This document shows, piece after piece, positions 4,474 to 45,630 of a DNA stretch of 64,000 nucleotides. How positions within the stretch are numbered: position 1 is the stretch's first letter; each line of letters opens with the position of its first letter. The position numbers and the translations under genes are program-made. This stretch comes from Mycobacteriales bacterium (GTDB lineage Bacteria > Actinomycetota > Actinomycetes > BP-191): NCBI GenBank assembly GCA_035714365.1, contig DASTMB010000014.1, positions 55,720 to 119,719 on the forward strand, read 5' to 3'. The notes under the pieces are model-generated. The model searched no databases, was not told the origin of the DNA, and saw nothing but the letters and a program-made list of their open reading frames with translations.

Positions 4474-4483
4474 GAGGCCTCGC

Positions 4484-4993
4484 ATGGAGTCCTACGTCGG
4501 TGAGATCAAGATGTTCTGCGGGACCTTCGCTCCCGTGGGCTGGCTCAAGTGCGACGGGTCGCTGCTGAGGATCGCGGACTACGACGTGCTGTTCGCCCTC
4601 ATCGGGATCAACTACGGCGGCGACGGGATCACCACCTTCGCGTTGCCGGACCTGCGCGGCCGGGTGCCGATCCACCGCCTCAAGCCGTCGATGCCCGAGG
4701 GCCTGACGGGCGGGGTCGAGAGCGTGACGCTGACGTCGGCCACCATCGCGCAGCACTCGCACTCGTTCGTCGCGTCGACGGCGCTGGCGACCGACACCGG
4801 GCCTCCCGGAGGTACGCCGGCCCAGGGGACCAGCGCGCAGCTCTTCGTAGAGGACGCCCTCGACCAGCAGTTCAACGCCGCGGCCGTGCTGCCCTACCTC
4901 GACGGCGGCAACCAGCCGCACGAGAACAGGCACCCGTTCCAGGCCGTCAACTACATCATCGCGTACGAGGGTATCTACCCTCCCCACAGCTAG
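4484..4993 (+). CDS. Phage tail collar domain protein, paralog B of cassette 1
   Basis: ATG preceded by the junction cTAGGAGGcc. Same collar N-terminal motif. HSH motif. Confidence 0.8.
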   Translation: MESYVGEIKMFCGTFAPVGWLKCDGSLLRIADYDVLFALIGINYGGDGITTFALPDLRGRVPIHRLKPSMPEGLTGGVESVTLTSATIAQHSHSFVASTALATDTGPPGGTPAQGTSAQLFVEDALDQQFNAAAVLPYLDGGNQPHENRHPFQAVNYIIAYEGIYPPHS

Positions 4994-5002
4994 GAGAATG
5001 TC

Positions 5003-5536
5003 GTGGCCGAGGCATTCATCGGCGAGGTCCGCATCTACGGGTTCAACTTCGCGCCCAGGGGCTGGGCGTTCTGCAACGGCGACCTCCTGTCCATCTCGCA
5101 GAACACCGCGCTGTTCTCGCTGCTCGGCGTCAACTTCGGGGGCAACGGCCAGACGACGTTCGGCCTGCCGGACTTCCGCGGCGGCCGGGTGCCGATCAGT
5201 GCCGGCCAGGGCCCCGGTCTCAGCGCGTACGACATCGGCCAGACCGGCGGCGTCCCCTCGGTCACGCTGACGGTCAAGGAGACGCCGCAGCACGTGCACA
5301 CGGCGTCGGCGAGCAGCACTCCGGCGAACGTCTCCACGCCGACGGCGAACACCGCCATCGCGCGGTCCAAGGGCGCGATGGCGTACGCGCCGCCCGTGCA
5401 GGCCAGCATCGGCCCCATGAGCTCCAACACGATCTCGCAGGCCCCGGGGGGCGCCGCGCCGCACAACAACCTGATGCCGTACCAGGTGCTGAACTACTGC
5501 ATCTGCCTGAACGGCATCTACCCGCAGCGCCCATGA
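5003..5536 (+). CDS. Phage tail collar domain protein, paralog C of cassette 1
   Basis: GTG start after cTAGGAGaa. Collar motif. HVH motif. Confidence 0.8.
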   Translation: MAEAFIGEVRIYGFNFAPRGWAFCNGDLLSISQNTALFSLLGVNFGGNGQTTFGLPDFRGGRVPISAGQGPGLSAYDIGQTGGVPSVTLTVKETPQHVHTASASSTPANVSTPTANTAIARSKGAMAYAPPVQASIGPMSSNTISQAPGGAAPHNNLMPYQVLNYCICLNGIYPQRP

Positions 5537-6012
5537 CGGAGGTGGCGCTGCGCCCGGAGACCCCGGGCGACGAGGCCTTCTCGCGCGCGGTCTATGGATC
5601 GACGCGCGAGGAGGAGCTCGCGGTCACGGGATGGACCGATGAGCAGAAGGCGGCGTTCCTCGCGATGCAGTACGTCGCGCAGCGCACGTACTACCGCGAG
5701 GTCTACCCCGACGCCGCGTACGACGTGATCGTCGTGGACGGCGAGGACGCCGGGCGGCTCTACGTAGCCCGGCTGGCGGACGAGATCCGCATCATCGACA
5801 TCGCGCTGCTGCCGGCGTTCCGCGGCCGCGGGATCGGCCAGGGCCTGCTGGGCGACGTGCTGGCCGAGGCCGGCGCGTCGGGGCGGCGCGTGGTCATCCA
5901 CGTGGAGCAGAACAACCGCGCGCGCGAGCTCTACCTGCGCCTGGGCTTCGAGGTCGCCGAGGACGTCGGCGTGTACCACCGCCTGGAGTGGGCGCCGCCC
6001 GAGGTCAGCTGA
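5533..6012 (+). CDS. GNAT family N-acetyltransferase
   Basis: ATGA overlap with the upstream gene. Motif A 'RGRGIGQGLL' seen in the translation. Confidence 0.75.
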   Translation: MTEVALRPETPGDEAFSRAVYGSTREEELAVTGWTDEQKAAFLAMQYVAQRTYYREVYPDAAYDVIVVDGEDAGRLYVARLADEIRIIDIALLPAFRGRGIGQGLLGDVLAEAGASGRRVVIHVEQNNRARELYLRLGFEVAEDVGVYHRLEWAPPEVS

Positions 6013-6304
6013 AGATCGCCTGGTAGCGCACGCCCTCGGCGTCCTGCGCGATCGGCACCAGGAACAGCGGCAGATCGCCCAGCTCGTCGTGCCCGAGCGT
6101 CCGGATCCCTTGCGGCGCAACGGGTCCCTGCGGCGTCGTGAACACCAGGGAGAACGGCGCGCGGGCGTCCTCGGGCACGTGCCGTGCGGTCTCGGTGAGG
6201 TCCGTCACCTCGGCCAGCGTCAGCTCGGCCCCGGACTCGGCGTCGGTGAACGCCTGCCCGACGCGGTCGCGGAACGTCTCGTAGGTCAGCTCAGTCAGGT
6301 CCAC
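6005..6304 (-). CDS. Small hypothetical protein (99 aa). Homologous by eye to the Tat-secreted protein at 12041-12439.
   Basis: ORF convergent with the GNAT gene. Shared pattern 'FRxxVGxxF...SG...L..V.D....AR....F.L.F...G.....G.....H...G...LF..P...AE.G.Y.A' with the 12041 protein. Confidence 0.5.
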   Translation of the reverse strand: MDLTELTYETFRDRVGQAFTDAESGAELTLAEVTDLTETARHVPEDARAPFSLVFTTPQGPVAPQGIRTLGHDELGDLPLFLVPIAQDAEGVRYQAIFS

Positions 6305-6525
6305 AACCCGCGGATGCTAGCGGGCCCGCCGATGACGCGCGGCGACCACCGGGCGACGGCGCGCGAGCGCCAGGGTCTTTCGGCCCTGATCCGCCTAGGG
6401 ACCTCTGACACGACTTCTCGTGGTGGAGACGTTTTCTTGCCGGAACCGGCTGACAGCGTGGCGCAGTTGGGCCAGTGTCGCCGACTGCACGCGTCGTGCC
6501 CCGCGACGCGACCGAAGGGGGAGCC

Positions 6526-9500
6526 ATGCCAGCCCCGTTCCGCAACCGCCTGTTCGTGCTCGCCGCTTTCGGCCTCCCCGCCGTGGGGTTCGCACTCGCG
6601 TTCTCGGTCTCGGCCGAGGCCGCGGCAGAGTTCGCGGCGACCGCGACGATCTCGAGCTCCCCGCAGTACATCGGGGACACCGCGGGCACGGCGTTCACGT
6701 TCACGGTGACCAACACCGGGACCACGACGACGCTCGGTGCGGTGGAGATCGAGCGGCCGTCGAACGGCTGGTCGATCACGTCGTGCGGCACGACGCCGAC
6801 GGGCTGGACGGGGCAGACGGCGGACCCGAAGTGCCGGTACCGCAGCGGCGAGGCCGGAGCGGACGACATCCTGCCCGGGCAGTCGCGACAGTTCGTCGTC
6901 ACCGCGACGACGCTGGCGGGCACGGCCAACCGCGTCGGGACCTGGCACGTCACGGTGAGCAAGTCGAACCAGTTCGACAACCCGAGCCTCCTCACGGCGG
7001 CCGACGGCGGCCTCCAGACGACCGCGTACACGTGGGAGGTGCTCGACGCCGCCGTGTCCGCGTCGGCGGTCGCGCCCGGCTCCGCGTGCCCGGCCTCCGA
7101 CAAGGACGCGCTCACCAACGCGACCGTCACCATGGTGATCTGCGGGCGCAACCACGCGACGGTCCCGCTGACGCCGACGGCGGGCTACTCGAGCCTCGGG
7201 GGCACGTTCCTCGCCGGGCCGGGCGTGTTCTCGTCCGGCCAGATCGCCGCCAACATCGGGCCGGTCGTCGTCGCGAGCTGGACCGGCGCCAAGGTCGTCG
7301 GCCTGCCCGGCCAGAACCTCACGGTCGTCGCAACCATCGGCAGCGCCGGCAACCAGACGTCGCCCCTCACCACGCTGACCGGCTACGAGGCGATCAACGC
7401 CCCGCCGGTCGCGAACAACGACGCGTACTCCGTCGCGGAGGACGGCTCGCTCTCCCCGGCGGCCCCCGGCGTGCTGGGCAACGACACCGACCCGGAGGGC
7501 CAGCCGATCACGGCGGTCCTGAGCGCCGGCCCCGCCCACGCGGCGAGCTTCACGCTGAACGCGAACGGGTCGTTCACCTACGCACCCGCCGCGAACTACT
7601 CGGGCAGCGACTCGTTCACCTACCGCGCGCACGACGGCATCCAGGCGTCGAGCTCGCCTGCCACCGTGTCGATCACGGTGACCGCGGTCAACGACGCTCC
7701 GGTCAACACCGCGCCGCCCGCGGTCTCGACCGAGGAGGAGACGGCGTACACCTTCGCGCCGGGCGCGCTGTCGGTCGCGGACGTCGACTCCGGTGCCGCG
7801 GACGTCCAGACGAGCCTCACCGTCGCCAACGCCTCGGTGACGGTCGGCACCACCGGTGTCACGGTGACCGGCAACGGGACGGGCCACGTCACGGTGACCG
7901 GCCCCGTCACCGCGGTCGCCGCGGCGCTGGACGGCGCCACGCTCACGCCGGGCGCCGGCTTCAGCGGCTCCACCACGCTGACGATGGTCACCTCCGACCT
8001 CGGCCACACCGGCAGCGGCGGAGCGCTCACCGACACCGACGCGATCACCGTCTCCGTGCAGTTCGTCAACGACGCGCCGTCGTTCACTCCCGGCGCGGAC
8101 CAGACGGCCGCCGAGGACTCCGGTGCGCAGTCGGTCGCCGGCTGGGCGACCGCGATCGACAAGGGCGGCGCGAGCGAGGCGGGCCAGGCGCTGACGTTCC
8201 AGGTCACCAACGACAACGCGGCGCTCTTCGCCGCCGCCCCCGCGGTCTCGCCGAGCGGCACGCTGACCTACACGCCCGCCCCTGACGCGTACGGCACCGC
8301 GACGGTCTCCGTCGTGCTCCACGACGACGGAGGCACCGCCAACGGCGGTGACGACACGTCGGACGCGGTGACGTTCACCATCACCGTGACGCCCGTCAAC
8401 GACGCGCCGTCGGCGGCCGCCCAGTCCGTCACCGCCCAGGCGAACATGCGCCTGCACGTGACCGGCCTGCTGGCCGGCGCGACCGACACCGCCGACGCGG
8501 GCGCGGCGTACACGCCGGGGTTCACCCTCGACTCGGTCACGGCCGCGTCGTGCGCGGGCTGCGGCATCTCCAACGTCGCCCCCGACGGGTCGTTCGACTT
8601 CGACCCGCCGGCGGGCGCGACCGGCAGCTACTCGTTGAGCTACACGATCAAGGACACCGGGTACCCGGCACCCGGCGTGACGAGCGCGCCCGCGACGATC
8701 GACGTCACCGTCCAGGGCCCGGTCGTGTGGTTCGTCGACGCGTCGAACCCGAGCGCCGGCAGCGGCACGCTGACCGACCCGTTCAAGACGCTCTCCGCGG
8801 CCTCCGCCGCGGCGGGCACGGGCCAGCGGATCTTCGTGTCGAGCGGCACGGTGACGGGCAGCCTCAGCCAGGCCACCAACGGCTGGCTGGTCGGCCAGGG
8901 CGTGACCGGCGCGTCGTTCGACGCGGTCATGGGCGTCACGCCGCCGGCAGGGACCGCTCCGCGGCCCGCCATCAACGGCACCCGCCCGACCGTCGTGGGC
9001 GGCGTCTCGCTCGCGGACGGCAGCGTCGTCCGCGGCCTGAACCTCACGCCACCGTCCGGCACGGCAGGGCTCGTCGGCAACGGCGACGACGGCGTGACGG
9101 TCGGCGAGGCCTCCGTGACCTCGGCGAACGCCCGCGCGGTCGACATCCAGTCGTCGCAGGGCAGCACGATCTCGCTGACGAAGGTGTCGTCGACCTCGGC
9201 GCCGAACGGCATCCGGCTCGCCACGGTCAACACCACGACGCCGGGCTCGGTGTCGGTGACCGGCGGCTCGACCGCGGGCAGCGGCGGCACCATCAGCGGC
9301 TCCACCGGCGCCGGCGTCTCGCTGACGAACGTCAACGGCGTCTCGCTGGCCTGGATGACCGTCAGCGGCTCGGGCGCGGAGGGCATCTTCGGCTCGGTCG
9401 TCAACGGCCTCACGGTCGCGGACTCGACCGTCTCGGGCAGCGCGCTCCAGGGCGTCTCGCTCGCGAACCCGGCCGGCCCCTCGGCGCTGACCCGGGTCAC

Positions 9501-10416
9501 GGTGCACGGCTCGGGCTCCGACAATGCGCGCTACTTCGGCTCGACCGGCACGTCGAGCCTCACCGTGACCGACTCGACGTTCCGTGACAACAGCACGACG
9601 ACCGGCGGCAACGGCCTGCTCGTCCAGGCGGACGGGAACGCGGCGATGACCGTCACGGCGACCGGCAACGCGTACCTCCGCAACCGCTCCGTCGGACTCG
9701 CCGTCCGCGCCAACTCCACCGCGACGATGACGTCGACCCTGACCGGCGGCTCGTACGACACCAACGGCGTCGGCATCGACGTCGTGTCGAGCGGCACCGG
9801 CGGGCACGCGTTCGCCCTCAGCGGCGGCACGGTCACCGGCTGCGCCACCTGCGGCACCCCGGTGAACGTCTACAAGGCCACGAGCGGCACGGGCACCGGC
9901 GCGAACGCGCTGTCCGGCACCGTCAGCGGCATGACCGTCACCAACGGCAACTCGGAGAGCTCGAGCGGGATCTGGGTCCACGCCGAGGGCGCGGGCGCCA
10001 CTCGCGTCGCGGTCACGAACAACACCGTCTCGCAGATCGCGGAGCAGGGCATCCTCGTCGCGGCCGGCAACGGCAGCTCCTCGATGGACGCCACCATCAC
10101 CGGCAACACGGTGACGCTGCTCGACCCGGGTGCCCTCCAGGGCATCCAGATCGACTCCGGCACGCTGAGCGGAGACACGACCAAGGTGTGCGCCGACATC
10201 AAGACGAACACCGTGGCCTCGCCGCTGGCCGCGGACGTCCGCGTCCGCAACCTGCGGGCCGGCACGACGTTCCGCCTCCCCGGCTACGCCGGCGGCGCTA
10301 CTAGCACGACGGACGTCGTGACGTTCCTGATTTCGCAGAACACGATCACCGACGCAGCCGCCGTGGTTGGGTCGAGCCCAGGCTTCACCGGGGGTGCCGC
10401 ATGCGCGGCTCCGTAG
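6526..10416 (+). CDS. Giant secreted repeat protein 2, a paralog of the 2-3934 protein. Signal peptide, DUF11-like N-terminal domain, cadherin/Ig-like 'VNDAP' repeats, then a C-terminal right-handed beta-helix.
   Basis: GAAGGGGGAG RBS 5 nt before the ATG. Hydrophobic signal 'FVLAAFGLPAVGFALAFSVSAEA'. Same repeat architecture and 'PVVWFVDASNPSAGSGTLTDPFKTL' cap. Ends ...FTGGAACAAP. Confidence 0.85.
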   Translation: MPAPFRNRLFVLAAFGLPAVGFALAFSVSAEAAAEFAATATISSSPQYIGDTAGTAFTFTVTNTGTTTTLGAVEIERPSNGWSITSCGTTPTGWTGQTADPKCRYRSGEAGADDILPGQSRQFVVTATTLAGTANRVGTWHVTVSKSNQFDNPSLLTAADGGLQTTAYTWEVLDAAVSASAVAPGSACPASDKDALTNATVTMVICGRNHATVPLTPTAGYSSLGGTFLAGPGVFSSGQIAANIGPVVVASWTGAKVVGLPGQNLTVVATIGSAGNQTSPLTTLTGYEAINAPPVANNDAYSVAEDGSLSPAAPGVLGNDTDPEGQPITAVLSAGPAHAASFTLNANGSFTYAPAANYSGSDSFTYRAHDGIQASSSPATVSITVTAVNDAPVNTAPPAVSTEEETAYTFAPGALSVADVDSGAADVQTSLTVANASVTVGTTGVTVTGNGTGHVTVTGPVTAVAAALDGATLTPGAGFSGSTTLTMVTSDLGHTGSGGALTDTDAITVSVQFVNDAPSFTPGADQTAAEDSGAQSVAGWATAIDKGGASEAGQALTFQVTNDNAALFAAAPAVSPSGTLTYTPAPDAYGTATVSVVLHDDGGTANGGDDTSDAVTFTITVTPVNDAPSAAAQSVTAQANMRLHVTGLLAGATDTADAGAAYTPGFTLDSVTAASCAGCGISNVAPDGSFDFDPPAGATGSYSLSYTIKDTGYPAPGVTSAPATIDVTVQGPVVWFVDASNPSAGSGTLTDPFKTLSAASAAAGTGQRIFVSSGTVTGSLSQATNGWLVGQGVTGASFDAVMGVTPPAGTAPRPAINGTRPTVVGGVSLADGSVVRGLNLTPPSGTAGLVGNGDDGVTVGEASVTSANARAVDIQSSQGSTISLTKVSSTSAPNGIRLATVNTTTPGSVSVTGGSTAGSGGTISGSTGAGVSLTNVNGVSLAWMTVSGSGAEGIFGSVVNGLTVADSTVSGSALQGVSLANPAGPSALTRVTVHGSGSDNARYFGSTGTSSLTVTDSTFRDNSTTTGGNGLLVQADGNAAMTVTATGNAYLRNRSVGLAVRANSTATMTSTLTGGSYDTNGVGIDVVSSGTGGHAFALSGGTVTGCATCGTPVNVYKATSGTGTGANALSGTVSGMTVTNGNSESSSGIWVHAEGAGATRVAVTNNTVSQIAEQGILVAAGNGSSSMDATITGNTVTLLDPGALQGIQIDSGTLSGDTTKVCADIKTNTVASPLAADVRVRNLRAGTTFRLPGYAGGATSTTDVVTFLISQNTITDAAAVVGSSPGFTGGAACAAP

Positions 10417-10474
10417 TGACGAGAAGCCAGGCAACCGTCTCACCCGCGACCGCTCCATACGAGGAGGACCAGTA

Positions 10475-10978
10475 ATGGGAGACCCGTTTCTCGGCGAGAT
10501 AAAGATGGTGCCGTACAACTACGCCCAGCAGGGCTGGGCGATGTGCAACGGCAGCCAGCTGCCGATCAACCAGAACCAGGCGCTGTTCTCCCTGCTGGGC
10601 ACGACGTACGGGGGCAACGGCCAGACGACCTTCGCGCTGCCGAACCTCCAGGGCCGGGTCCCGATGCACTTCCAGAACAACGCGTTCAACCAGGGGCAGC
10701 AGGGCGGCGAGCAGGCGCACACGATCACGATCAACGAGCTGCCCACGCACACGCACGTCACGCAGGGCACGCAGAACGCCGCGACGACGGTGGCATCCAC
10801 GGGCAACGTGTTCGCCAACGCGACCGTGAACGCGTACAACGACCCCGCGTCGTTCGCGAGCCTCGCGCCCAACACCATCGGCAACGTCGGCGGCTCGCAG
10901 CCGCACAACAACATGGCCCCCTACACGGTGCTGACGTTCGTCATCGCGCTCCAGGGCGTCTTCCCGTCCCACAACTAG
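10475..10978 (+). CDS. Phage tail collar domain protein, paralog A of cassette 2
   Basis: ATG after GAGGAGG. Most similar to the 3976-4473 protein (shared 'GNVFANxTVNxY'). Confidence 0.8.
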   Translation: MGDPFLGEIKMVPYNYAQQGWAMCNGSQLPINQNQALFSLLGTTYGGNGQTTFALPNLQGRVPMHFQNNAFNQGQQGGEQAHTITINELPTHTHVTQGTQNAATTVASTGNVFANATVNAYNDPASFASLAPNTIGNVGGSQPHNNMAPYTVLTFVIALQGVFPSHN

Positions 10979-10986
10979 GAGGCCCC

Positions 10987-11490
10987 ATGAGCCAGCCATA
11001 CGTCGGCGACATCCGCATCTTCGCCGGGACCTACGCACCCGCCGGGTGGGCGTTCTGCAACGGCCAGCCGCTGCCCATCTCCGAGAACGAGGTGCTGTTC
11101 CAGCTCATCGGCACGACCTACGGCGGCGACGGCCAGGAGACGTTCAACCTGCCTGACCTGCGGGGGCGCCTTCCGATGCACCAGGGGTCGGGCTTCACGC
11201 TCGGCGAGATGGCCGGCACCGAAGAGGTGACGCTCACGACGCAGCAGATCCCGGTGCACAACCACGCGTTCCTGGCCACGACGGCGCTCGCCATCGAGAC
11301 GGGCCCCGCGGGCAACGTCCCCGCGCAGGGCACGAGCATCCAGCTCTTCGTCGAGGACGCGACCGACGTGCAGATGGCGGCCAGCATGGTCGCGCCCACG
11401 GGCGGCAACCAGCCGCACACGAACCTGCACCCGTACCTCTGCGTCAACTTCATCATCGCGCTCTACGGCGTCTTCCCGACTCAGAACTAG
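10987..11490 (+). CDS. Phage tail collar domain protein, paralog B of cassette 2
   Basis: Junction cTAGGAGGcc before the ATG. Most similar to the 4484-4993 protein (shared 'PAQGTSxQLFVEDAxD...GGNQPH'). Confidence 0.8.
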   Translation: MSQPYVGDIRIFAGTYAPAGWAFCNGQPLPISENEVLFQLIGTTYGGDGQETFNLPDLRGRLPMHQGSGFTLGEMAGTEEVTLTTQQIPVHNHAFLATTALAIETGPAGNVPAQGTSIQLFVEDATDVQMAASMVAPTGGNQPHTNLHPYLCVNFIIALYGVFPTQN

Positions 11491-11501
11491 GAGGCCCGGA
11501 C

Positions 11502-12023
11502 ATGGTCGAACCTTTCCTCGCCGAGATCCGGATCTTCGGCTTCAACTTCCCGCCGACCGGCTGGGCGTACTGCAACGGGCAGCTCATGCCCATCTCCCAG
11601 AACACCGCGCTCTTCGCGCTGCTCGGCACCTTCTACGGGGGTGACGGCAAGTCGACGTTCGCGCTGCCGAACATGCAGGGCAACGCGCCCATGCACCCCG
11701 GCCAGGGACCGGGGCTGAGCACCCACTCCCTCGGCGAGGTCGGCGGCACCCCGACGGTCACGCTGCTCCAGTCGGAGATTCCGGCCCACAGTCACACGGT
11801 GAACTCGTCGAGCACGCCGGCCAACGTCAGCACGCCGACGCCCACGACCGTCATCGCGCGGTCGAAGGGTCAGACCGCGTACGCGGCGCCGAACAACCTG
11901 ACGCCGATGGCGTTCCAGACGTTGGCGCCCACCGGCGGCGACTTCCCGCACAACAACCTCATGCCGTACCTGGTGCTCAACTTCTGCATTGCCCTCCAGG
12001 GCGTCTTCCCCCCGCGTCCCTGA
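11502..12023 (+). CDS. Phage tail collar domain protein, paralog C of cassette 2
   Basis: Junction cTAGGAGGcc before the ATG. Most similar to the 5003-5536 protein (shared 'SSTPANVSTPT'). Confidence 0.8.
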   Translation: MVEPFLAEIRIFGFNFPPTGWAYCNGQLMPISQNTALFALLGTFYGGDGKSTFALPNMQGNAPMHPGQGPGLSTHSLGEVGGTPTVTLLQSEIPAHSHTVNSSSTPANVSTPTPTTVIARSKGQTAYAAPNNLTPMAFQTLAPTGGDFPHNNLMPYLVLNFCIALQGVFPPRP

Positions 12024-12040
12024 TCGAAGGAGTGGTCCAC

Positions 12041-12439
12041 ATGGTGGCGCAACCGTCACGCCGTTCGGTGCTGCGGGCCGCTGTGATGCTCGCGGCGGCG
12101 GCGTCCACGCCCCTGCTCGGGGCCCAGCGGGCGTTCTCCCTCGCGCCGGGGGAGGGCGGCGCTCTGCGACGCTCGGCGTTCCGGCCGCACGTCGGGTCGT
12201 CGTTCGCGCTCGCCGCGAGCGGCGTGACGTACCGCGCCAAGCTGGTGAAGGTCGCCGACGTCCGCACCGCGGCGCGCGGGCACGAGAAGAAGTTCCGGCT
12301 GATGTTCGACGTCCGGGGTAGTGGGCCGGGCGCGGGGACGTACCGGTTCTCCCACCCGTCGTACGGCGCCGTGGACCTGTTCGTCAGCCCGGTCGGCGCC
12401 GAGGCCGGGGCGTACGAGGCCGTGGTGGACGCGGGCTAG
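12041..12439 (+). CDS. Small secreted hypothetical protein with a twin-arginine (Tat) signal. Homolog of the 6005-6304 protein.
   Basis: GAAGGAG RBS 9 nt upstream. 'SRRSVLRAAVMLAAAAS' Tat motif. Confidence 0.6.
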   Translation: MVAQPSRRSVLRAAVMLAAAASTPLLGAQRAFSLAPGEGGALRRSAFRPHVGSSFALAASGVTYRAKLVKVADVRTAARGHEKKFRLMFDVRGSGPGAGTYRFSHPSYGAVDLFVSPVGAEAGAYEAVVDAG

Positions 12440-34820: not shown

Positions 34821-37800
34821 ATGGAAGGTGCGTTCATCCTCGCGCGCGGCGACGAGCTCAGCCGCTTTCGGTCGTTGCTGGACGAGGTGCTGGAGAGCGC
34901 CCGGCATCCGTCGTTGACGAGCAGCAGTTACCTGGTCGTGATCCACGGTCTCGGGGGGATCGGCAAGACTGAGCTGTGGAAGCGCTACTGCGGAATCACT
35001 CGGGGTGACCTCGAGGACGACCTCCGCTTCCGCAGTAGGTTCACCCTCGCCGAGCTGGACTGGGAGATTGATCGCGAACGCAACCCGGGGGACTATTCGG
35101 CGACGGGACCCACTCTGGTGCGTGCGCTCAACGCGCTCTACCAGACCTTGGCCGCGGCTATGTCGTCCAAGAACCACCAGGGGCACGCGGAGAAGGCTTT
35201 CAAGCGATATCGGGAGCTCGCAGCGCAGCAGATTACCGGTCTACCGCGCGCAAATGATCCTCAGGGCTCGGCGCTGCAGACTGCGATCGAGTCGCTGGCG
35301 GACGTGGTGGGACCCGTCGACCCGACGCCCATGCGCGCCGCGGCGAAGAGTACCAAGGCTCTCGCCGCCATGGTCGGTGCCTTCGATACCGAACGCCGGC
35401 GCCGCAGGGGGGCCATGAACAGTGCCGACCTTGAGGCGGTGGCGCGCCCGGAACGGGCACTCACCACTGCGTTTGTCGCCGGCCTTCGTGACCTGACCCG
35501 CCATATCCCACCGATCGTGATCGCGCTGGACACGGCGGAGATCCTGGGCGACGCGCGAATCCCGCTGTTCGACGTGATCAACAGCCAGATCCCGCAGGTG
35601 GTCTGGGTACTGGCGATGCGGCTGGCCGGTACCGACAGTCAGGACGATTCGGTCGCTACCCGCTACCTGCGCGAAATGCCCTCCTCCCATCTGCGGGTCA
35701 TCGTGCCATCTCGGTTCAACGTTCCGGATATCGCGGAATACCTACACCGTCGCCTTGGCTACGCAGCCTCGGCGCCGGTCACTCCATCTGCAGTCCTCGC
35801 GCTTACCCAGGGCATCCCGCTCGCGGTACGGCTGCTGGCCGACCTGCTCGGGCGAGGAGCCGATCCGGTGGAAGCGCTGAAGGCGGTGTCGGACGATGGC
35901 GAGGTATCGACGGTCGTCACCAGCCTGGCCCGCCGCTATCTCGTCCACATTGCCGATCAACCCGACGCGCACGAGGACCTCCAGCGCATTTATGGCCTGG
36001 CACTGCTGCGCGGCGAGCGTGCTGATCCAGAATTGCTGGCCGCACTGTGGGGCGTGCCGCCATCGGATCTCGCCGTCGTGACAAGCCGGTTGATTCACAG
36101 GCACGATTTCGTTCGCAGCCGCGGTATGGAGCTACACCAGGACGTCCGGGATACGATCCGCGCCTACCTGCTCAACCCCGAGCGGCGAGCCGAGGTACAG
36201 GCCGCGAACAGGCGCGCAGTCGGTGTCCTGCGAGCTCGCACCGGGGCGCTCGGCCCAGTGACGATTGAAGAACAACTGGCCAGCGACGACTGGTGTACGG
36301 CGGCGCTCAACCTCCTCTGGCACACCCTGTGGGTCGATAGCCGAGAGGGGGTTCGCCTCCTTGCCCACCTGCTCCCCGCGTCGTATGTGCTCCGCCCGCA
36401 ATTTGCCCTCGCGTTACTCCAGGTCGCCGGCGAGTTCGGGCCGGTATGCACGGCGGAACTGCGCGAAGTGGTGGGCGGACTGCGATTGCTGATGCCGAGC
36501 TCGCCGTTCGTGATGGCGATCGGGACCGCACTGCGCCAGGCTCGCCAGCAGGGCGCATCCGACGCGATCCTCGACCGCGATCCTACCCAGGCCGCTGTAG
36601 CCTGGCTCGAAGCCGGAAGCGCCCTCCCGGAACCCGTGCTCGGCACGGATGTACCGCCAGGCACCCTGATCCCACTGCTGGACCTGTTGCGTCCGCGCCG
36701 GATCGAGGACAGGGCGGACTTGGACCGGTTGCTACTCCAGGCGGAGGCAGTCGACGCCGCGCTGCGGGTGGAGCCGGCTAGACATCCCCGGTTAATAGAG
36801 GCCGCCGCAAACGCAGCAGCTGAGCTGATGTGGTCGTACTACGAGAAGAAGGACTACGAGCGTGCCGCTCGGAGCGGCCACCTTGCGCTTCGACACGAGA
36901 CCGCCGACGTTGTTCGGTGGCACCGCTACTACCGGGTACTCTCTGCATCCGACGACCGAAACGGTGCACTGGCTGCGGCGGACCGGTGCGTTGCGCTCGA
37001 CCCGACGAGTCCGGTCAACCACCACAACCTCGGTGTCGCGCTGCAGGCGCTCGGCCGGCACGAGGAGGCGGTCACCCCGTTCCGGACTGCGGTCGATCTG
37101 GATTCCTCCTCGGCGCGCCGGCTCGCTCTTGCGCGGTGTCTCTTCGCCTGTGGACGGTTCGCGGAGGTGGTCAGCCTGTGCACCGAGGTTCTCGCGACTG
37201 AGGAGATTGCCGAGGCGCGGGTGCTCCGAGGTAACGCCCACGCCAGGTTGGGTCAGGACAACGAAGCGATCGACGACTACCAGGTAGCGGTCACGGGGGA
37301 AACGCCGTCCATTGCGGCGCTCAACAACCTCTATATTGCCCTGGCGCGCTCGGGTCGGCTGGAGGAGGCGCTAGCTGCGATCGACCGTGCGGTTGCGCTC
37401 GACCGCGCATCAGGCACCCACCAGGCGAACCGCGGCGAATGCCTGCTGCTGCTTAGTCGCCACGAGGAAGCCACGGCTGCCCTTCGCCATGCAATCGAAG
37501 ACGAACAGGACCACTTGGAGGCCCGGGTTCTGCTGGCCCTCATGTTGTGGACCACGGCGCCTGAAGCGGCAGTCGCGCTGTGCGAGCAGGCACTGCGCAG
37601 TCAAGGAGAGATGAACTCGCCGTTCCGCGCGGCCGAGCTGCGCGCTATTGCGAAGCTACTGCTCGGGGATGAAGCCGCCGCGGAACAAATTCTGCGCGAC
37701 GCTTCTGCGCGCCGGCTCCGGAGCGACTGGTACCAGGAACCGGTCTACGAGTTGCTTCGCTCATCAGGTGTCGCGGGAGTTGACCGGCTAATCGCGGTGT

Positions 37801-37835
37801 GGCGGGACGGAGAGTCTCCGGCGGTGCCGCTGTGA
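34821..37835 (+). CDS. STAND-type P-loop NTPase (NB-ARC-like, Walker A 'GLGGIGKTE') with a C-terminal TPR repeat array. No recognisable DNA-binding domain.
   Basis: 1004-aa ORF in lower-GC DNA immediately downstream of the tRNA. TPR-like 34-aa periodicity in the last ~300 aa. Confidence 0.8.
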   Translation: MEGAFILARGDELSRFRSLLDEVLESARHPSLTSSSYLVVIHGLGGIGKTELWKRYCGITRGDLEDDLRFRSRFTLAELDWEIDRERNPGDYSATGPTLVRALNALYQTLAAAMSSKNHQGHAEKAFKRYRELAAQQITGLPRANDPQGSALQTAIESLADVVGPVDPTPMRAAAKSTKALAAMVGAFDTERRRRRGAMNSADLEAVARPERALTTAFVAGLRDLTRHIPPIVIALDTAEILGDARIPLFDVINSQIPQVVWVLAMRLAGTDSQDDSVATRYLREMPSSHLRVIVPSRFNVPDIAEYLHRRLGYAASAPVTPSAVLALTQGIPLAVRLLADLLGRGADPVEALKAVSDDGEVSTVVTSLARRYLVHIADQPDAHEDLQRIYGLALLRGERADPELLAALWGVPPSDLAVVTSRLIHRHDFVRSRGMELHQDVRDTIRAYLLNPERRAEVQAANRRAVGVLRARTGALGPVTIEEQLASDDWCTAALNLLWHTLWVDSREGVRLLAHLLPASYVLRPQFALALLQVAGEFGPVCTAELREVVGGLRLLMPSSPFVMAIGTALRQARQQGASDAILDRDPTQAAVAWLEAGSALPEPVLGTDVPPGTLIPLLDLLRPRRIEDRADLDRLLLQAEAVDAALRVEPARHPRLIEAAANAAAELMWSYYEKKDYERAARSGHLALRHETADVVRWHRYYRVLSASDDRNGALAAADRCVALDPTSPVNHHNLGVALQALGRHEEAVTPFRTAVDLDSSSARRLALARCLFACGRFAEVVSLCTEVLATEEIAEARVLRGNAHARLGQDNEAIDDYQVAVTGETPSIAALNNLYIALARSGRLEEALAAIDRAVALDRASGTHQANRGECLLLLSRHEEATAALRHAIEDEQDHLEARVLLALMLWTTAPEAAVALCEQALRSQGEMNSPFRAAELRAIAKLLLGDEAAAEQILRDASARRLRSDWYQEPVYELLRSSGVAGVDRLIAVWRDGESPAVPL

Positions 37836-38185
37836 TCAAGTTGGACGTAGAGCTCCTCAAGCGCGCCCAGCTTGCCGAACTCCCACCGGCGTTCGTCAAC
37901 GTCATCTTGCGATCGACCTACGAGGAACTTGAGATGCGGGTCGGTGCGCGGCTGGCCGCACGGATGTCGGACGCACAGTTCGACGAATTCGAGACATTTA
38001 TAGACAATGACGACGACTCTGGAGCCCTCGCCTGGTTGGAAGCCAACTTCCCAGACTACCGTGAGATAGTAGCTGCAGAGTTCGACCGGCTGGTGGACGA
38101 GTTAGGTGCGGTCAGCCAGGAGGTCCGAGATATGGCGTTCGCATTGCTGCCCCCGTCCGACAGTCACGCGCGTGCCTTGTGGTAA
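37832..38185 (+). CDS. Small acidic hypothetical protein (117 aa), translationally coupled to the STAND NTPase by a GTGA overlap
   Basis: Start overlaps the upstream stop. No recognisable domain. Confidence 0.5.
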   Translation: MIKLDVELLKRAQLAELPPAFVNVILRSTYEELEMRVGARLAARMSDAQFDEFETFIDNDDDSGALAWLEANFPDYREIVAAEFDRLVDELGAVSQEVRDMAFALLPPSDSHARALW

Positions 38186-38423
38186 CCAGCACTCCTCGGA
38201 CAGGGCGGCGCCGGGTCGCGGCCTGTGCGTAGACCGACGCGGCCGTAGCCTCACGAGCCCTTCCGGAACAGCGTGGAGGAGGTCGACTCGGCGTAATTCC
38301 ACAATCGAACTGCCCGGTGCTCGACCGCAGCTCGTCCACGGCTGATACGTGTCCGGACTGTCCAGGAAGGCCATGTTGCGGCACCATGGCGGCTCCCCGC
38401 ACACCACCCTCGAAGGAGCGCAC

Positions 38424-38606
38424 ATGCCCGTCCGCCGCACGCTGTCCCTCAAGCGCGAGGTGCTCCAGGAGCTGACCGACGGTGACCTCCAGGTCATCGG
38501 CGGCGCCGGCCCGGACACCAAGGAGACGCTCTACAGCTGCCTGGCCTTCCAGAGCTGCCGGATCGTCAACTGCGGTGCCCTCGAGACGGCGATCTGCCCC
38601 GTCTGA
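38424..38606 (+). CDS. Precursor-like peptide 1 (60 aa). Double-glycine-type leader 'LSLKREVLQELTDGDLQVIGG', then a 4-Cys core 'AGPDTKETLYSCLAFQSCRIVNCGALETAICPV'.
   Basis: GAAGGAG RBS. Conserved leader shared with two paralogs downstream. Strong hairpin immediately 3'. Confidence 0.6.
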   Translation: MPVRRTLSLKREVLQELTDGDLQVIGGAGPDTKETLYSCLAFQSCRIVNCGALETAICPV

Positions 38607-38616
38607 CGCACCCGGA

Positions 38617-38664
38617 CGAACGGGCCCCGGTCCGGCGCGCACCGACGCGCCGCCGGGGCCCGTT
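38617..38664 (+). terminator. Compound hairpin: 13-bp perfect stem gaacgggccccgg/ccggggcccgttc enclosing an inner stem cggcgcg/cgcgccg
   Basis: Direct reading, 11 nt after the stop of peptide 1. Confidence 0.6.
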
Positions 38665-38697
38665 CGCGTTCCCGGCCGCGGCGGTAGCGTCTCCGCC

Positions 38698-39207
38698 GTG
38701 GAGGTCGCGGAGGCGCTGGAGGTCCTGTCCCGCACGCCGGGGGCGCTGCGCGCGCTGCTCGGCGGGCTGCCGGACGCCTGGCTGCGGTGCGGCGGCGCGG
38801 ACGACTGGGGTCCGGCCGAGGTGCTCGCGCACCTGGTCGAGGGGGAGCTGACCGACTGGCTGCCGCGGCTGCGCACGATCCTCGCCCACGGCACGGAGCG
38901 GGCGTTCGCGCCGTTCGACCGCACGACGGTGCCGGCGGTCGGCGGCGACCCGCTGGAACGCTTCGCCGGCCTGCGCGCGGCGAACGTCGCGGCCGTGCGC
39001 GATCTCGGCCCGCTCGACCTCGACGCGCGTGGCGTCCACCCCGAGCTGGGCGAGGTCACGCTCGGCGAGCTGCTGGCGACGTGGGCGGTCCACGACCTGG
39101 CGCACGTCGCGCAGGTGGCCGAGGCGATGGCCCGGAGCCGGCGCGACGAGGTCGGCCCGTGGCGGGCATACCTGCCCGTGCTGGACCGCGGTCCCGCCAC
39201 CGACTGA
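38698..39207 (+). CDS. DinB_2/DinB-family four-helix-bundle metalloenzyme-like protein (family of mycothiol/bacillithiol transferases)
   Basis: 'AHLVEGE...W' and 'WAVHDLAHVAQ' His-containing helices. The start is uncertain (GTG 38698). Confidence 0.55.
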   Translation: MEVAEALEVLSRTPGALRALLGGLPDAWLRCGGADDWGPAEVLAHLVEGELTDWLPRLRTILAHGTERAFAPFDRTTVPAVGGDPLERFAGLRAANVAAVRDLGPLDLDARGVHPELGEVTLGELLATWAVHDLAHVAQVAEAMARSRRDEVGPWRAYLPVLDRGPATD

Positions 39208-39293
39208 CGCCGCTCCCGCGGCGCGCGGGTCTGTCGCCGTTGCCCCTGGTGGTGCAGGATGTCGCCGACGTCCCCCGCCCCGCAGGAGTCCTG

Positions 39294-39467
39294 ATGCGTC
39301 GCACCCTCTGCCTCAAGCGCGAGGCCCTCGCCGAGCTCGGCACCGCCGACCTGGTTGGCATCGGCGGCGCCGGGGGCGCAACCGGCTTCAGCTGCCTCGA
39401 CTACGTGAGCTGCTACCCGTGGGACTGCCTGCCCCAGACGCTGGTCTGCGTCGAGGGCGCCCGGTGA
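39294..39467 (+). CDS. Precursor-like peptide 2 (57 aa). Leader 'LCLKREALAELGTADLVGIGG', core 'AGGATGFSCLDYVSCYPWDCLPQTLVCVEGAR'.
   Basis: GCAGGAG RBS. Paralog of peptide 1. Confidence 0.55.
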   Translation: MRRTLCLKREALAELGTADLVGIGGAGGATGFSCLDYVSCYPWDCLPQTLVCVEGAR

Positions 39468-39637
39468 AGCGCCGCCTGGTGCTCCGGCGCGAGGCGCTGG
39501 CCGAGGTCACGCCCGACGACCTGCGCGCCGTCGGCGGCGCGGCGACGCTGGCGGGCGCCTGCGGCGCGCTGACGGTGTTCGTGCAGGGCTGCGTCTCGGA
39601 CCCGCGGTTCTGCAACTACGTCACGGACCTCTGCTAG
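39464..39637 (+). CDS. Precursor-like peptide 3 (57 aa). Leader 'LVLRREALAEVTPDDLRAVGG', core 'AATLAGACGALTVFVQGCVSDPRFCNYVTDLC'.
   Basis: GTGA overlap with peptide 2. Paralog. Confidence 0.5.
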   Translation: MKRRLVLRREALAEVTPDDLRAVGGAATLAGACGALTVFVQGCVSDPRFCNYVTDLC

Positions 39638-44089: not shown

Positions 44090-44830
44090 ATGAACGACGC
44101 GGTGTGGCGGGCGCTCGCCGACCCGTCGCGGCGGGCGCTCCTCGACCTGCTGCGCGACGGGCCGCGGACGACCGGCGACCTCGCCGCGGCGTTCCCGGAC
44201 GTGACGCGGTACGCCGTGATGAAGCACCTGGCCGTCCTCACCGACGCCGGTCTCGTCACCGTGCGGCGCCGCGGCCGGGAGCGGTGGAACCACCTCAACG
44301 CCGTGCCGTTACGGCAGGCGTACGAGCGCTGGCTGGCGCCGTACGCCGAGCGCGCCGCGGTCACGGCGTTGCGGCTCAAGGACTTCGTCGAAGGGGAACC
44401 CATGAACGGCACGCTCGACGTCGCCACCGACGTCACGATCGACGCGCCGCGCGAGAAGGTGTGGGACGCGGTGCTGCGGATGGGCGAGTGGTGGCCGCAC
44501 CGCGCGCGCGAGGGGACGCCGGCGGTGCTCGAGCCGTTCGCCGGCGGGCGGTTCTTCGAGGACTGGGGCGACGGCGCCGGGGTGCTCTACGGCACCGTCA
44601 CGCGGCTCTGCCCGCCCGACCGGATCGTCGTCACCGGCCCCATGGGCATCCGCGGTCCCGTCGTCGGCGTCTGGACGCTCGAGCTCGTCGCGGAAGGTGA
44701 TGCGACGCGGCTGCTCGGCACGCACCGGGCATTCGGGGACGTGGACGAGGAGACGCGACAGGCGTACACCCACGGGTGGGGCGAGGTCTACGACTCGCTC
44801 CGCGGCTACCTCGGGGTGGAGGGCGCGTGA
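44090..44830 (+). CDS. ArsR-family wHTH regulator fused to an SRPBCC (AHSA1-like) domain
   Basis: 'LADPSRRALLDLLRDGPRTTGDLAAAF' HTH. Confidence 0.7.
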   Translation: MNDAVWRALADPSRRALLDLLRDGPRTTGDLAAAFPDVTRYAVMKHLAVLTDAGLVTVRRRGRERWNHLNAVPLRQAYERWLAPYAERAAVTALRLKDFVEGEPMNGTLDVATDVTIDAPREKVWDAVLRMGEWWPHRAREGTPAVLEPFAGGRFFEDWGDGAGVLYGTVTRLCPPDRIVVTGPMGIRGPVVGVWTLELVAEGDATRLLGTHRAFGDVDEETRQAYTHGWGEVYDSLRGYLGVEGA

Positions 44831-45630
44831 GCGAGCTGCAGGCGTACGCCGACGCGTTCGAGCAGACGTGGGCCGGCGTGTCCTCCGCGTGCACCAACCT
44901 CACGCCGGAGCAGTGGCACAGCCCGACCGACCTGCCCGGCTGGACCGTCAAGGACAACGTGTCCCACATCCTCGGCGAGGAGAAGTTCGCGCTCGGCGAC
45001 CCCGCGCCCGAGCACGAGGTGCCCGACCTGCCGCACCTGCGGCACGACTTCGCGCGGCTCATCGAGATCCCCGTCGACCTGCGCCGGCCGGTGCCCGGCG
45101 ACGAGGTGCTGCGGGAGTTCCGCGAGGTCACCGCGCGACGGCTGGCCATGCTGCGTTCGCTGCCCGACTCGGCGCTGGACGACGAGGTGCCCGGCCCCGA
45201 CGGCACCTGGCAGCGGCGGCGCCAGCTCGGCGTGCGGGTGTTCGACTGCTGGACGCACGAGCAGGACATCCGCCGCGCGCTCGGCCACCCCGGCGGGCTC
45301 GCCACGTCCGCCGCGCGGATCTCGCTGGAACGCGTGCTTCGCTCGCTCCCCGGCCTCGCCGAGGACGTGCCCGCCGCCACCGGCCGGTCCATGGCCGTCA
45401 CCACCACCGGGGCCGTCGCGTCCGCGTCGACGCTGCGCTTCGACCCGGATCGCTCCTATGTGGACGGCGCCGCCGCCGACGCGGACGTGCGGGTCACGGT
45501 GGACTTCGCGACGTTCCTCCGGATCGCGACCGGGCGAGTCCCGTACGACGCCGTCGCGGCCGAGGTCGCCGTCGAGGGCGACGTCGCGCTCGGCGAGGAG
45601 CTGCTGCGCCACGCGGCGATCACGCCGTAA
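44827..45630 (+). CDS. Mycothiol-dependent maleylpyruvate-isomerase-family (DinB-like N-terminal domain) protein
   Basis: GTGA overlap. 'NVSHILGEE' and 'WTHEQD' metal-binding motifs. Confidence 0.65.
   Translation: MSELQAYADAFEQTWAGVSSACTNLTPEQWHSPTDLPGWTVKDNVSHILGEEKFALGDPAPEHEVPDLPHLRHDFARLIEIPVDLRRPVPGDEVLREFREVTARRLAMLRSLPDSALDDEVPGPDGTWQRRRQLGVRVFDCWTHEQDIRRALGHPGGLATSAARISLERVLRSLPGLAEDVPAATGRSMAVTTTGAVASASTLRFDPDRSYVDGAAADADVRVTVDFATFLRIATGRVPYDAVAAEVAVEGDVALGEELLRHAAITP

What the first reader, a model, noticed from the sequence alone, without database searches (positions are those of the whole stretch)
38424..39637. Three paralogous double-glycine-leader, 4-Cys precursor-like peptides with a DinB_2-family gene and no transporter
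Three ORFs of 57-60 aa share an N-terminal approximately 25-aa sequence: 'L.LKRE.L.EL...DL..(I/V)GGA'. This matches the double-glycine leader consensus (Leu-12, acidic/Leu-8/-7, Ile/Val, GlyGly) of bacteriocins and RiPPs. The leader is followed by divergent cores, each with exactly four Cys plus several Ser/Thr. Peptide 1 has its own RBS and is followed by a strong hairpin, as is typical of structural-peptide genes. Peptides 2 and 3 overlap by GTGA. A DinB_2-family (thiol-transferase-type) gene lies between them. No peptidase-domain ABC transporter, LanM/LanB, radical-SAM or YcaO gene is nearby, so maturation and export machinery must be elsewhere or novel. A DinB-type thiol-dependent enzyme acting on Cys-rich cores would be unusual.
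Basis: partly seen in the sequence, partly recalled or inferred. Interest (0 to 1): 0.75.

Follow-up and report, generated by a model that had tools for sequence, protein, structure and literature searches.

The report
Satellite class I lanthipeptide precursor genes
The three small genes are real, but they are spare precursor genes of a lanthipeptide (ring-forming modified peptide) family whose standard enzymes and exporter sit at another locus in sister genomes, and the DinB gene between them is a bystander.

Summary
Three ORFs (38424-38606, 39294-39467, 39464-39637, + strand) share a double-glycine leader and 4-Cys cores, show coding GC3, have RBSs, and overlap by GTGA. A strong hairpin follows peptide 1, and a DinB_2 gene lies between peptides 1 and 2. 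The 64-kb window has no RiPP enzyme or PCAT.

The interpretation does not hold. A profile of the peptides finds hundreds of homologues, almost all in uncultured Frankiaceae/Mycobacteriales MAGs and soil metagenomes. They occur as tandem arrays at many loci per genome. Some members pass NCBIfam NF038153 (class I lanthipeptide leader).

In sister genomes, family members lie directly beside a LanC-LanB-(154 aa)-C39 PCAT cluster (L036/L037, L022). Others lie beside a methyltransferase-LanB module (L034, L035).

Core statistics fit thioether peptides rather than disulfide peptides: 47% have odd Cys counts, Ser+Thr is at least equal to Cys in all 122, and cores are 14% Cys and 12% Thr.

DinB_2, STAND-TPR, DUF5663 and BNR homologues appear only in same-species contigs, never at other family loci.

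Best reading: these are satellite class I LanA genes matured in trans and exported by a PCAT. The one gap is that no LanB was found for this MAG itself. This is a new member of a known kind; interest is moderate because the family is so expanded.

The parts
38412..38418 (+). Ribosome-binding site GAAGGAG, 5 nt upstream of the pep1 ATG
   Evidence: Read directly from the sequence. The same GAAGGAG precedes the orthologue in L006.
38424..38606 (+). pep1: 60-aa LanA-type precursor. Leader MPVRRTLSLKREVLQELTDGDLQVIGGA, core GPDTKETLYSCLAFQSCRIVNCGALETAICPV.
   Evidence: GC3 is 0.95. Leader HMM E = 2.6e-11. Orthologues are P0012 (66% identity, in the syntenic locus L010), P0005 and P0007. The leader is conserved and the core diverges with its Cys positions kept.
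38614..38669 (+). GC-rich stem-loop after pep1. Probably a T-tract-less terminator, attenuator or RNA-stabilising hairpin of the kind common after structural-peptide genes.
   Evidence: strand folding gives -55.5 kcal/mol, z = -4.63, with 0 of 200 shuffles as stable. The consensus terminator scan does not call it because there is no T-run. Its function is inferred.
38698..39207 (+). DinB_2-fold gene (169 aa) lying between pep1 and pep2. It is a neighbour and is judged not to be part of the peptide system.
   Evidence: Pfam DinB_2 E = 8.3e-15. Homologues occur only in same-species contigs L002-L005 and at no other family locus. The syntenic array in L010 has no DinB.
39284..39288 (+). Ribosome-binding site AGGAG, 5 nt upstream of the pep2 ATG
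   Evidence: Read directly from the sequence.
39294..39467 (+). pep2: 57-aa LanA-type precursor. Leader MRRTLCLKREALAELGTADLVGIGGA, core GGATGFSCLDYVSCYPWDCLPQTLVCVEGAR.
   Evidence: GC3 is 0.95-0.97 in this frame. Leader HMM E = 2.3e-11. The core subfamily is conserved in P0025, P0006 and P0058.
39464..39637 (+). pep3: 57-aa LanA-type precursor with a GTG start overlapping pep2's stop (GTGA), which suggests translational coupling. Leader (M)KRRLVLRREALAEVTPDDLRAVGGA, core ATLAGACGALTVFVQGCVSDPRFCNYVTDLC, ending in a C-terminal Cys.
   Evidence: GC3 reaches 0.9-1.0 in this frame. Leader HMM E = 5.6e-12. The core subfamily is conserved in P0057, P0077 and P0082.

Best explanation
The three ORFs are translated precursor genes (LanA) of a lineage-specific, heavily expanded family of class I lanthipeptides with a double-glycine leader.

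Proposed mechanism:
1. The conserved N-terminal leader (RTLSLKRExLxEL...DLxxVxGG/GA) recruits a LanB dehydratase, which converts core Ser/Thr to dehydro-residues.
2. A LanC cyclase adds the core Cys thiols to those residues, forming thioether rings.
3. A C39-peptidase ABC transporter (PCAT) cuts after the GG/GA and exports the product.

These enzymes are not in the window. They act in trans from one dedicated locus, as in sister genomes where LanC-LanB-(154 aa)-PCAT is directly followed by peptides with the same leader. The window locus is one of many satellite arrays scattered around the chromosome, analogous to the prochlorosin arrangement of class II systems.

The DinB_2, STAND-TPR, DUF5663 and BNR genes around the peptides are unrelated neighbours in a variable region between the AhpC/MFS genes and the NIF3 operon.

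Shown here: the ORFs are coding; they belong to the family; the family is physically linked to LanB, LanC and PCAT in related genomes; DinB is not conserved with the peptides. Inferred: the same machinery exists in this organism, it accepts these three cores, and the products carry lanthionine rings.
For: 1. Coding and under selection.
- GC3 is 0.93-0.97 in frame, and RBSs are present.
- Identical genes appear in three independent assemblies (L003-L005).
- pep1 against orthologue P0012: the leader has 3 synonymous and 4 non-synonymous changes in 24 codons. The core has 3 and 16 in 32 codons, with all Cys kept.

2. Family.
- The profile search finds 646 homologues at E <= 1, all about 50-70 aa.
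- The representative library holds 2136 representatives at E <= 1e-3.
- A degenerate leader pattern hits only 5 of 185,579 species genomes, all uncultured Frankiaceae/Mycobacteriales, at many loci each.
- Tandem arrays of 3-15 genes occur.

3. Class assignment.
- P0075, from the same MAG as the window, together with P0088 and P0013, passes the NCBIfam NF038153 'class I lanthipeptide' leader cut-off. NCBI names P0075 and P0088 accordingly.

4. Physical linkage to the machinery.
- L036/L037 carry LANC_like (413 aa), Lant_dehydr_N+C (1027 aa), a 154-aa gene and Peptidase_C39+ABC (721 aa), followed by 5 family peptides.
- L022 carries the PCAT orthologue (E 5e-239) plus 7 family peptides.
- L034 and L035 carry a methyltransferase-LanB pair flanked by family peptides.
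- The leader HMM also hits small ORFs beside LanB in 28 of 80 unrelated soil loci. Of those 80 loci, 56 have LanC homologues and 54 have PCAT homologues.

5. Core chemistry (122 members).
- Cys counts are 3:10, 4:39, 5:44, 6:26 and 7:3, so 47% are odd.
- Ser+Thr is at least equal to Cys in 100% of cores.
- Cores are 14.4% Cys, 11.9% Thr and 7.6% Ser.
- 92% carry [ST]C-x4-C, and 43% end in Cys.

6. Precedent.
- Class I lanthipeptides with double-glycine leaders have been characterised: viridisins, thalassomonasins, Ped15.1/15.2 and pinensins (PMC9680876).
Against: - The window's own three peptides do not reach any curated model: there is no Pfam or NCBIfam hit. They are linked to the class only through the family profile.
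- No LanB, LanC or PCAT is in the 64-kb window.
- No LanB carrying an accession of this MAG (HEU013...) was recovered. Trans-maturation in this organism is therefore inferred. The MAG may simply be incomplete.
- There is no chemical or expression evidence.
- pep1-3 cores use an SC-x4-SC-x4-C motif rather than the dominant TCP-x3-C motif. Whether the same enzymes accept them is unknown.
Confidence: 0.72

Rival explanations
1. The peptides are unmodified, disulfide-bonded double-glycine-leader peptides (class II bacteriocin-like or signalling peptides). A PCAT only cleaves and exports them, and each core forms two disulfides.
For: - There are four Cys in each of the three window cores.
- The leader is a canonical GG leader.
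- Weak sub-threshold hits of family members to Bacteriocin_IIc and to the lactobin A/cerein 7B family.
- No modification enzyme lies in the window.
Against: - Across the family, 47% of cores have an odd number of Cys.
- Ser+Thr is at least equal to Cys in every member.
- Family members sit beside LanB and LanC, not only beside the PCAT.
- Some members pass the class I lanthipeptide leader model.
Confidence: 0.12
2. One reading: the DinB_2 (thiol-transferase-fold) enzyme encoded between the peptides modifies their Cys-rich cores, making this a new RiPP class.
For: - The DinB_2 gene lies between pep1 and pep2 on the same strand.
- There is a weak resemblance to the YfiT bacillithiol transferase (E 7e-4, far below the cut-off).
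Against: - DinB homologues are found only in same-species contigs and at none of the other family loci. These include the syntenic locus L010, the arrays L001, L009, L011 and L014, and the LanB clusters.
- A strong hairpin separates pep1 from the DinB gene.
- DinB-fold genes are common here. A second one lies 5.6 kb away at 44827-45630.
Confidence: 0.03
3. The genes are stranded relics. This genome has lost (or never had) the synthetase, and the three genes are unexpressed or make no functional product.
For: - No LanB from this MAG was found in the protein collection.
- The locus lies in a variable region next to low-GC3, probably acquired, genes.
Against: - The ORFs are intact, with RBSs and translational coupling.
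- GC3 is as high as in housekeeping genes.
- The sequences are identical in three other assemblies.
- Cys positions and core subfamilies are conserved across species.
- The same MAG keeps a second array of about 14 genes (L009).
- At least four related MAGs with the family do have LanB.
Confidence: 0.08
4. The peptides are substrates of the second, LanC-less module (UbiE-type methyltransferase plus LanB). That would give dehydrated and methylated peptides whose rings, if any, form without a dedicated cyclase.
For: The methyltransferase-LanB module is flanked on both sides by family peptides in two species, and no LANC_like gene is called in the flanks read on either side (3.3 kb upstream to the contig end and 10 kb downstream in L034; 10 kb each side in L035).
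Against: - The peptides next to that module form distinct core and leader subtypes (KLTLKTERLAEL...), unlike pep1-3.
- The same genome (accessions HEX800...) also encodes the full LanC-LanB-PCAT cluster.
Confidence: 0.05

Closest known systems
Class I lanthipeptides with double-glycine leaders (viridisins VdsA1-3, thalassomonasins, Ped15.1/15.2, pinensins). The corresponding leader model is NCBIfam NF038153 lant_leader_L1a.
   Same: - Short precursors with a K/R-x-L-x-L-x-K/R-E-x-L-x-x-L ... L-x-x-V-x-GG leader and Ser/Thr/Cys-rich cores.
- Several precursors per cluster.
- Separate LanB and LanC enzymes (PMC9680876).
   Different: - The known examples come from Bacteroidota and Gammaproteobacteria and sit inside their cluster.
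- Here the host is an uncultured Frankiaceae/Mycobacteriales lineage.
- The window copies are more than 25 kb from any Lan gene.
- The three peptides score below every curated leader model.
- Each genome carries tens of copies.
Prochlorosins (class II; ProcA precursors and the single ProcM synthetase of Prochlorococcus/Synechococcus). This comparison rests on established knowledge.
   Same: - Many precursor genes with a conserved leader and hypervariable cores.
- The precursors are scattered over the genome, away from the single synthetase locus.
- The leader has a GG-type cleavage site.
   Different: - Prochlorosins use a Nif11-type leader and a bifunctional LanM.
- This family has a short L1a-type leader and is linked to split LanB/LanC enzymes.
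- This is a resemblance in how the system works, not family membership.
Class II (unmodified) double-glycine-leader bacteriocins exported by PCATs
   Same: - A GG/GA leader with the -4, -7, -8 and -12 signature.
- A C39-ABC transporter beside family members in L036.
   Different: - Core composition and odd Cys counts.
- Adjacency to LanB and LanC points to modified peptides.

Membership tests
Class I lanthipeptide precursor (LanA) | The leader matches a curated class I leader model (NCBIfam NF038153 or Pfam PF28317 Lant_leader_dom). | tested here: not met
   pep1-3 have no NCBIfam hit at E <= 1 and no Pfam hit at E <= 10. Family members P0075 (same MAG), P0088 and P0013 do pass NF038153, with 24.8, 23.5 and 27.6 bits against a cut-off of 22. 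The link for pep1-3 is indirect, through the family profile at E about 1e-11.
Class I lanthipeptide precursor (LanA) | The gene is encoded beside, or in the same genome as, a LanB dehydratase and a LanC cyclase. | tested here: inconclusive
   Not met in the window: there are no homologues in 64 kb. Met for family members in sister genomes: L036/L037 carry LanC-LanB-PCAT plus 5 peptides, and L034 and L035 carry LanB. No LanB was recovered for this MAG.
Class I lanthipeptide precursor (LanA) | The core is rich in Ser/Thr and Cys, with enough Ser/Thr to partner every Cys. | tested here: met
   Ser+Thr against Cys is 5/4 in pep1, 4/4 in pep2 and 4/4 in pep3. Across the family, Ser+Thr is at least equal to Cys in 122 of 122 cores, which are 14% Cys and 12% Thr.
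Class I lanthipeptide precursor (LanA) | The mature product contains (methyl)lanthionine thioether rings. | not testable with these tools
   This needs mass spectrometry or NMR of native or co-expressed peptide.
Double-glycine-leader peptide (PCAT substrate) | GG/GA/GS at -2/-1, a hydrophobic residue at -4, -7 and -12, and an acidic residue at -8. | tested here: met
   All three leaders are in register: L-12, D-8, L-7, I/V-4 and G-A at -2/-1. The register holds across 98 aligned homologues.
Double-glycine-leader peptide (PCAT substrate) | A cognate ABC transporter with an N-terminal C39 peptidase domain. | tested here: inconclusive
   None is in the window. One is present next to family peptides in L036/L037 (Peptidase_C39+ABC_membrane+ABC_tran, with the QxxxxxCG and HFVVL motifs visible in the sequence) and in L022.
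Prochlorosin-type system (class II, LanM, Nif11 leader) | A LanM synthetase and a Nif11/NHLP-type leader. | tested here: not met
   No Nif11 or NHLP hit for the peptides. The associated enzymes are LanB and LanC. This is an analogy of organisation only.
DinB_2 superfamily (the intervening gene) | Match to the DinB_2 four-helix-bundle domain. | tested here: met
   Pfam PF12867 E = 8.3e-15, 55.8 bits against a cut-off of 24.8. The YfiT bacillithiol-transferase equivalog is not met: 19 bits against 160.

The most novel reading that the evidence does not exclude
An uncultured Frankiaceae/Mycobacteriales lineage runs a prochlorosin-like combinatorial library on a class I (LanB/LanC) chassis. One LanC-LanB-PCAT locus, plus a second LanC-less methyltransferase-LanB module, would serve tens of hypervariable precursors per genome, spread over at least 5-8 chromosomal loci. 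Lower-bound counts are at least 17 in this MAG, about 29 in SMAG_U6499 and about 43 in SMAG_U3176. The window trio would be one satellite of this library. To my knowledge such a large trans-acting class I library has not been described, and my literature searches found none.
Probability: 0.5. Interest if true: 0.6.

Novelty: new member of a known kind. Interest (0 to 1): 0.38.

Why it matters
For annotation: these genes are deposited as 'hypothetical protein' and escape the Pfam and NCBIfam models. Cluster-based miners such as antiSMASH would be expected to miss them, because no enzyme lies nearby. A leader profile built from the family recovers them.

For RiPP biology: if the trans-maturation model is right, the LanB/LanC pair of this lineage must tolerate dozens of unrelated cores. 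That kind of promiscuity has been exploited so far mainly with class II ProcM. The family offers hundreds of natural core sequences from an uncultured soil actinobacterial clade.

For the original claim: there is no case for a DinB-dependent RiPP chemistry.

Tried and rejected
- Direct Pfam and NCBIfam scans of the three peptides gave no hits.
- The look-up of encoding contigs with pep1 found nothing on record.
I replaced it with a degenerate DNA leader pattern.
- The convergent gene next to the arrays in L001, L009, L011 and L014 was considered as a radical-SAM maturase. I rejected this. Its sequence (CPQYCGHC motif) and its position beside KDD and the lysine-5,6-aminomutase subunits identify it as KamA of a lysine-degradation operon.
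- I tested for a STAND NTPase association, comparing the window STAND-TPR with the L019 NACHT protein. The two proteins are unrelated, E = 1.8.
- The BNR protein convergent to pep3 has homologues only in same-species contigs.
- Actinopeptins (DUF6229, LanM) and 'lanthiphage' FxLD-type class I peptides have different leaders and core motifs.
- I tried to find LanB in the window's own MAG through protein accessions. No HEU013... entry turned up.
- The metagenome scan for LanB did not return contigs from the samples that hold window-identical contigs, so it could not link machinery to this population.
Full report
**Observation**

The window is 71.7% G+C. NCBI holds the same peptides as hypothetical proteins VFQ85_03785, _03795 and _03800 of a 'Mycobacteriales bacterium' MAG, on a 125-kb contig.

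The three ORFs are at 38424-38606 (pep1, 60 aa), 39294-39467 (pep2, 57 aa) and 39464-39637 (pep3, 57 aa, GTG start inside the GTGA overlap).

- Third-position G+C is 0.93-0.97 in exactly these frames and switches frame where the genes do.
- pep1 and pep2 have GAAGGAG and AGGAG 5 nt before the ATG.
- The 77 nt after pep1 fold into a -55.5 kcal/mol hairpin (z = -4.6). It lacks a T-run.
- The gene at 38698-39207 is a DinB_2 domain protein (E 8e-15).
- The leaders align in register with the double-glycine consensus, and the cores each carry four Cys.
- A degenerate DNA pattern for the leader hits the window exactly three times, against zero in 100 shuffles.

**Surroundings**

I called genes by codon-position G+C and scanned them against Pfam.

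- Upstream: an M36 peptidase, AhpC, a 108-aa gene, an MFS transporter, a STAND-TPR protein and DUF5663.
- Downstream: a secreted BNR protein on the opposite strand, then the NIF3 / CT398 zinc-ribbon / RNase H-phosphatase operon, an HTH-AHSA1 gene, a second DinB-fold gene (MDMPI_N+DinB_2), and others.

There is no Lan enzyme, PCAT, radical-SAM or YcaO gene anywhere in the 64 kb. phmmer with LanB, LanC, PCAT and methyltransferase queries also finds nothing.

**The family**

A profile of the three peptides found only six outside homologues. Adding their tandem neighbours gave 646 homologues at E <= 1, all about 50-70 aa. In the 1.84-billion representative library there are 2136 representatives at E <= 1e-3.

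The leader pattern occurs in only 5 of 185,579 species-representative genomes. All five are uncultured Frankiaceae or 'Mycobacteriales' MAGs, with many loci each. Counting leader-HMM hits in the stretches fetched gives these lower bounds:

| Genome | Precursors (lower bound) |
|---|---|
| SMAG_U3176 | about 43 |
| SMAG_U6499 | about 29 |
| The window's MAG (3 in the window plus 14 in L009) | at least 17 |

The largest array (9-15 genes) always lies between an AsnC-type regulator and a lysine-degradation operon. Smaller sets lie beside unrelated housekeeping genes.

The syntenic locus of a related organism (L010: AhpC - 108 aa - MFS ... peptides - NIF3 operon) has three pep1-type genes. It has no DinB, STAND, DUF5663 or BNR gene.

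**What kind of peptide**

Three lines of evidence converge.

1. Curated models. Three members, including P0075 from the same MAG as the window, pass the NCBIfam NF038153 'class I lanthipeptide' leader model. NCBI names two of them (P0075, P0088) so. The window's own three do not reach it.

2. Physical linkage.
   - In L036/L037 (the MAG with accessions HEX800..., i.e. SMAG_U3176), a LANC_like gene (413 aa), a full LanB (1027 aa, Lant_dehydr_N+C), a 154-aa gene and a Peptidase_C39-ABC transporter (721 aa) are followed directly by five peptides with this leader.
   - L022 of another species has the PCAT orthologue (E 5e-239) and seven family peptides.
   - A second module, UbiE-type methyltransferase plus LanB without LanC, is flanked by family peptides in L034 and L035.
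   - LanB homologues are also recorded for at least three further Frankiaceae MAGs.
   - In 80 unrelated soil LanB loci, the leader HMM finds small ORFs of the type KKLxLxKETLRxL...ELxxVVGG beside LanB in 28. LanC homologues are present in 56 of the 80 and PCAT homologues in 54.

3. Core statistics on 122 members.
   - Cys counts are 3:10, 4:39, 5:44, 6:26 and 7:3, so 47% are odd. That is not expected for disulfide peptides.
   - Ser+Thr is at least equal to Cys in every member.
   - Cores are 14% Cys, 12% Thr and 7.6% Ser.
   - 92% contain [ST]C-x4-C, and 43% end in Cys.

Between pep1 and its orthologue P0012 the leader is conserved. The core has 16 non-synonymous changes in 32 codons, with all Cys retained. 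That is the usual pattern for RiPP precursors.

**Mechanism**

The best-supported model is a class I lanthipeptide pathway acting in trans:

1. The leader is bound by LanB.
2. LanB dehydrates core Ser/Thr.
3. LanC catalyses thioether formation.
4. The C39 PCAT cleaves after GG/GA and exports the product.

Family membership and linkage of the family to LanB, LanC and PCAT are shown. That this organism has the enzymes, and that they accept pep1-3, is inferred. I could not find a LanB with this MAG's accession prefix, which may reflect MAG incompleteness.

The hairpin after pep1 probably attenuates transcription or stabilises the pep1 message. This is inference from position and stability only.

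**DinB**

The DinB_2 gene and the other window neighbours (STAND-TPR, DUF5663, BNR) have homologues only in contigs of the same species (L002-L005). None occurs in the other family loci or in the 80 LanB loci.

DinB-fold genes are frequent here; a second one lies 5.6 kb away. The STAND-TPR and DUF5663 genes have atypically low GC3 (0.77 and 0.72), which suggests a recently acquired insert in a variable region. I therefore treat the DinB adjacency as incidental.

**Comparison with known systems**

Class I lanthipeptides with double-glycine leaders and several precursors per cluster are established. Examples are the viridisins, thalassomonasins, Ped15.1/15.2 and pinensins (PMC9680876).

The genome-wide scattering of many precursors resembles the prochlorosins, which are class II and use ProcM. 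That comparison rests on established knowledge. It is an analogy only, because the leader and the enzymes differ.

Actinopeptins (PMC13509491) and FxLD-type 'lanthiphages' (bioRxiv 10.1101/2024.06.26.600839) are different families.

My literature searches found no description of this Frankiaceae family, nor of a class I system with tens of dispersed precursors. The paper library is incomplete, so this does not prove novelty.

**Verdict**

- The RiPP-precursor reading is supported, but as satellite copies of a recognisable class I lanthipeptide system.
- The DinB hypothesis is not supported.
- This is a new member of a known kind. The interest is moderate and comes from the scale and dispersal of the precursor family rather than from the locus itself.

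Noticed in passing
window 2-12439: Two tandem paralogous modules. Each has a protein of about 1300 aa with Big_9, cadherin-like and beta-helix domains. In the first module this is followed by three proteins of 165-177 aa with a phage tail collar domain and a GNAT acetyltransferase. The second module has four similar-sized small genes that I did not scan. The function is unknown.
   Followed up: partly
window 34821-38185: The STAND-TPR gene (1004 aa) and the DUF5663 gene have GC3 of 0.77 and 0.72, against at least 0.92 in neighbouring genes. Contigs from other assemblies break inside the TPR gene (L003, L004). This looks like a recently acquired insert in a variable region. The STAND protein is unrelated to the NACHT protein beside the peptides in L019.
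   Followed up: partly
L034 3339-7865; L035 8006-13207: A conserved two-gene module, UbiE-type SAM methyltransferase (275 aa) plus full-length LanB (about 950 aa), with no LANC_like gene called in the flanks read (3.3 kb upstream to the contig end and 10 kb downstream in L034; 10 kb each side in L035). It is flanked on both sides by family peptides of a distinct subtype (KLTLKTERLAEL... leaders) and lies next to hrpA.
   Followed up: partly
L009 4312-7419; L014 8701-14016; L017; L021: The main peptide array (9-15 genes) always sits between an AsnC-type regulator and a KamA / KDD / lysine-5,6-aminomutase operon. In several species it has an M4 (thermolysin-like) peptidase, an FA_hydroxylase-family membrane protein and an unknown protein of about 270 aa embedded in it. 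Whether these take part in maturation or immunity is untested.
   Followed up: partly
L006 17-436; L025 2968-3333; L026 2400-2834; L034 2349-2747; L035 5116-5559: Small glyoxalase/VOC-fold proteins (Glyoxalase_6, 3-dmu-9_3-mt) recur next to peptide arrays at five independent loci. This could be chance, because the fold is common in actinobacteria, or it could be a binding or immunity protein. I did not test for enrichment.
   Followed up: no
P0183 (representative library hit): A 481-aa protein with nine tandem repeats. Each repeat is a GG-leader-like stretch (IELSEEDLEAIVGG) followed by a short C-x4-C core and NHNETL. It looks like a multi-core precursor from an unrelated lineage.
   Followed up: no
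L023 6427-8000; L085 4441-5508: A core subfamily '...TGYYPSLNAPCP...' is shared between a dispersed array in SMAG_U3176 and a small ORF next to a LanB in an unrelated soil contig. This hints that core types travel with the LanB clade.
   Followed up: no
window 44827-45630: A second DinB-fold gene (MDMPI_N + DinB_2, 267 aa) lies 5.6 kb downstream. It is conserved in the syntenic locus L010, unlike the DinB_2 gene between the peptides.
   Followed up: yes
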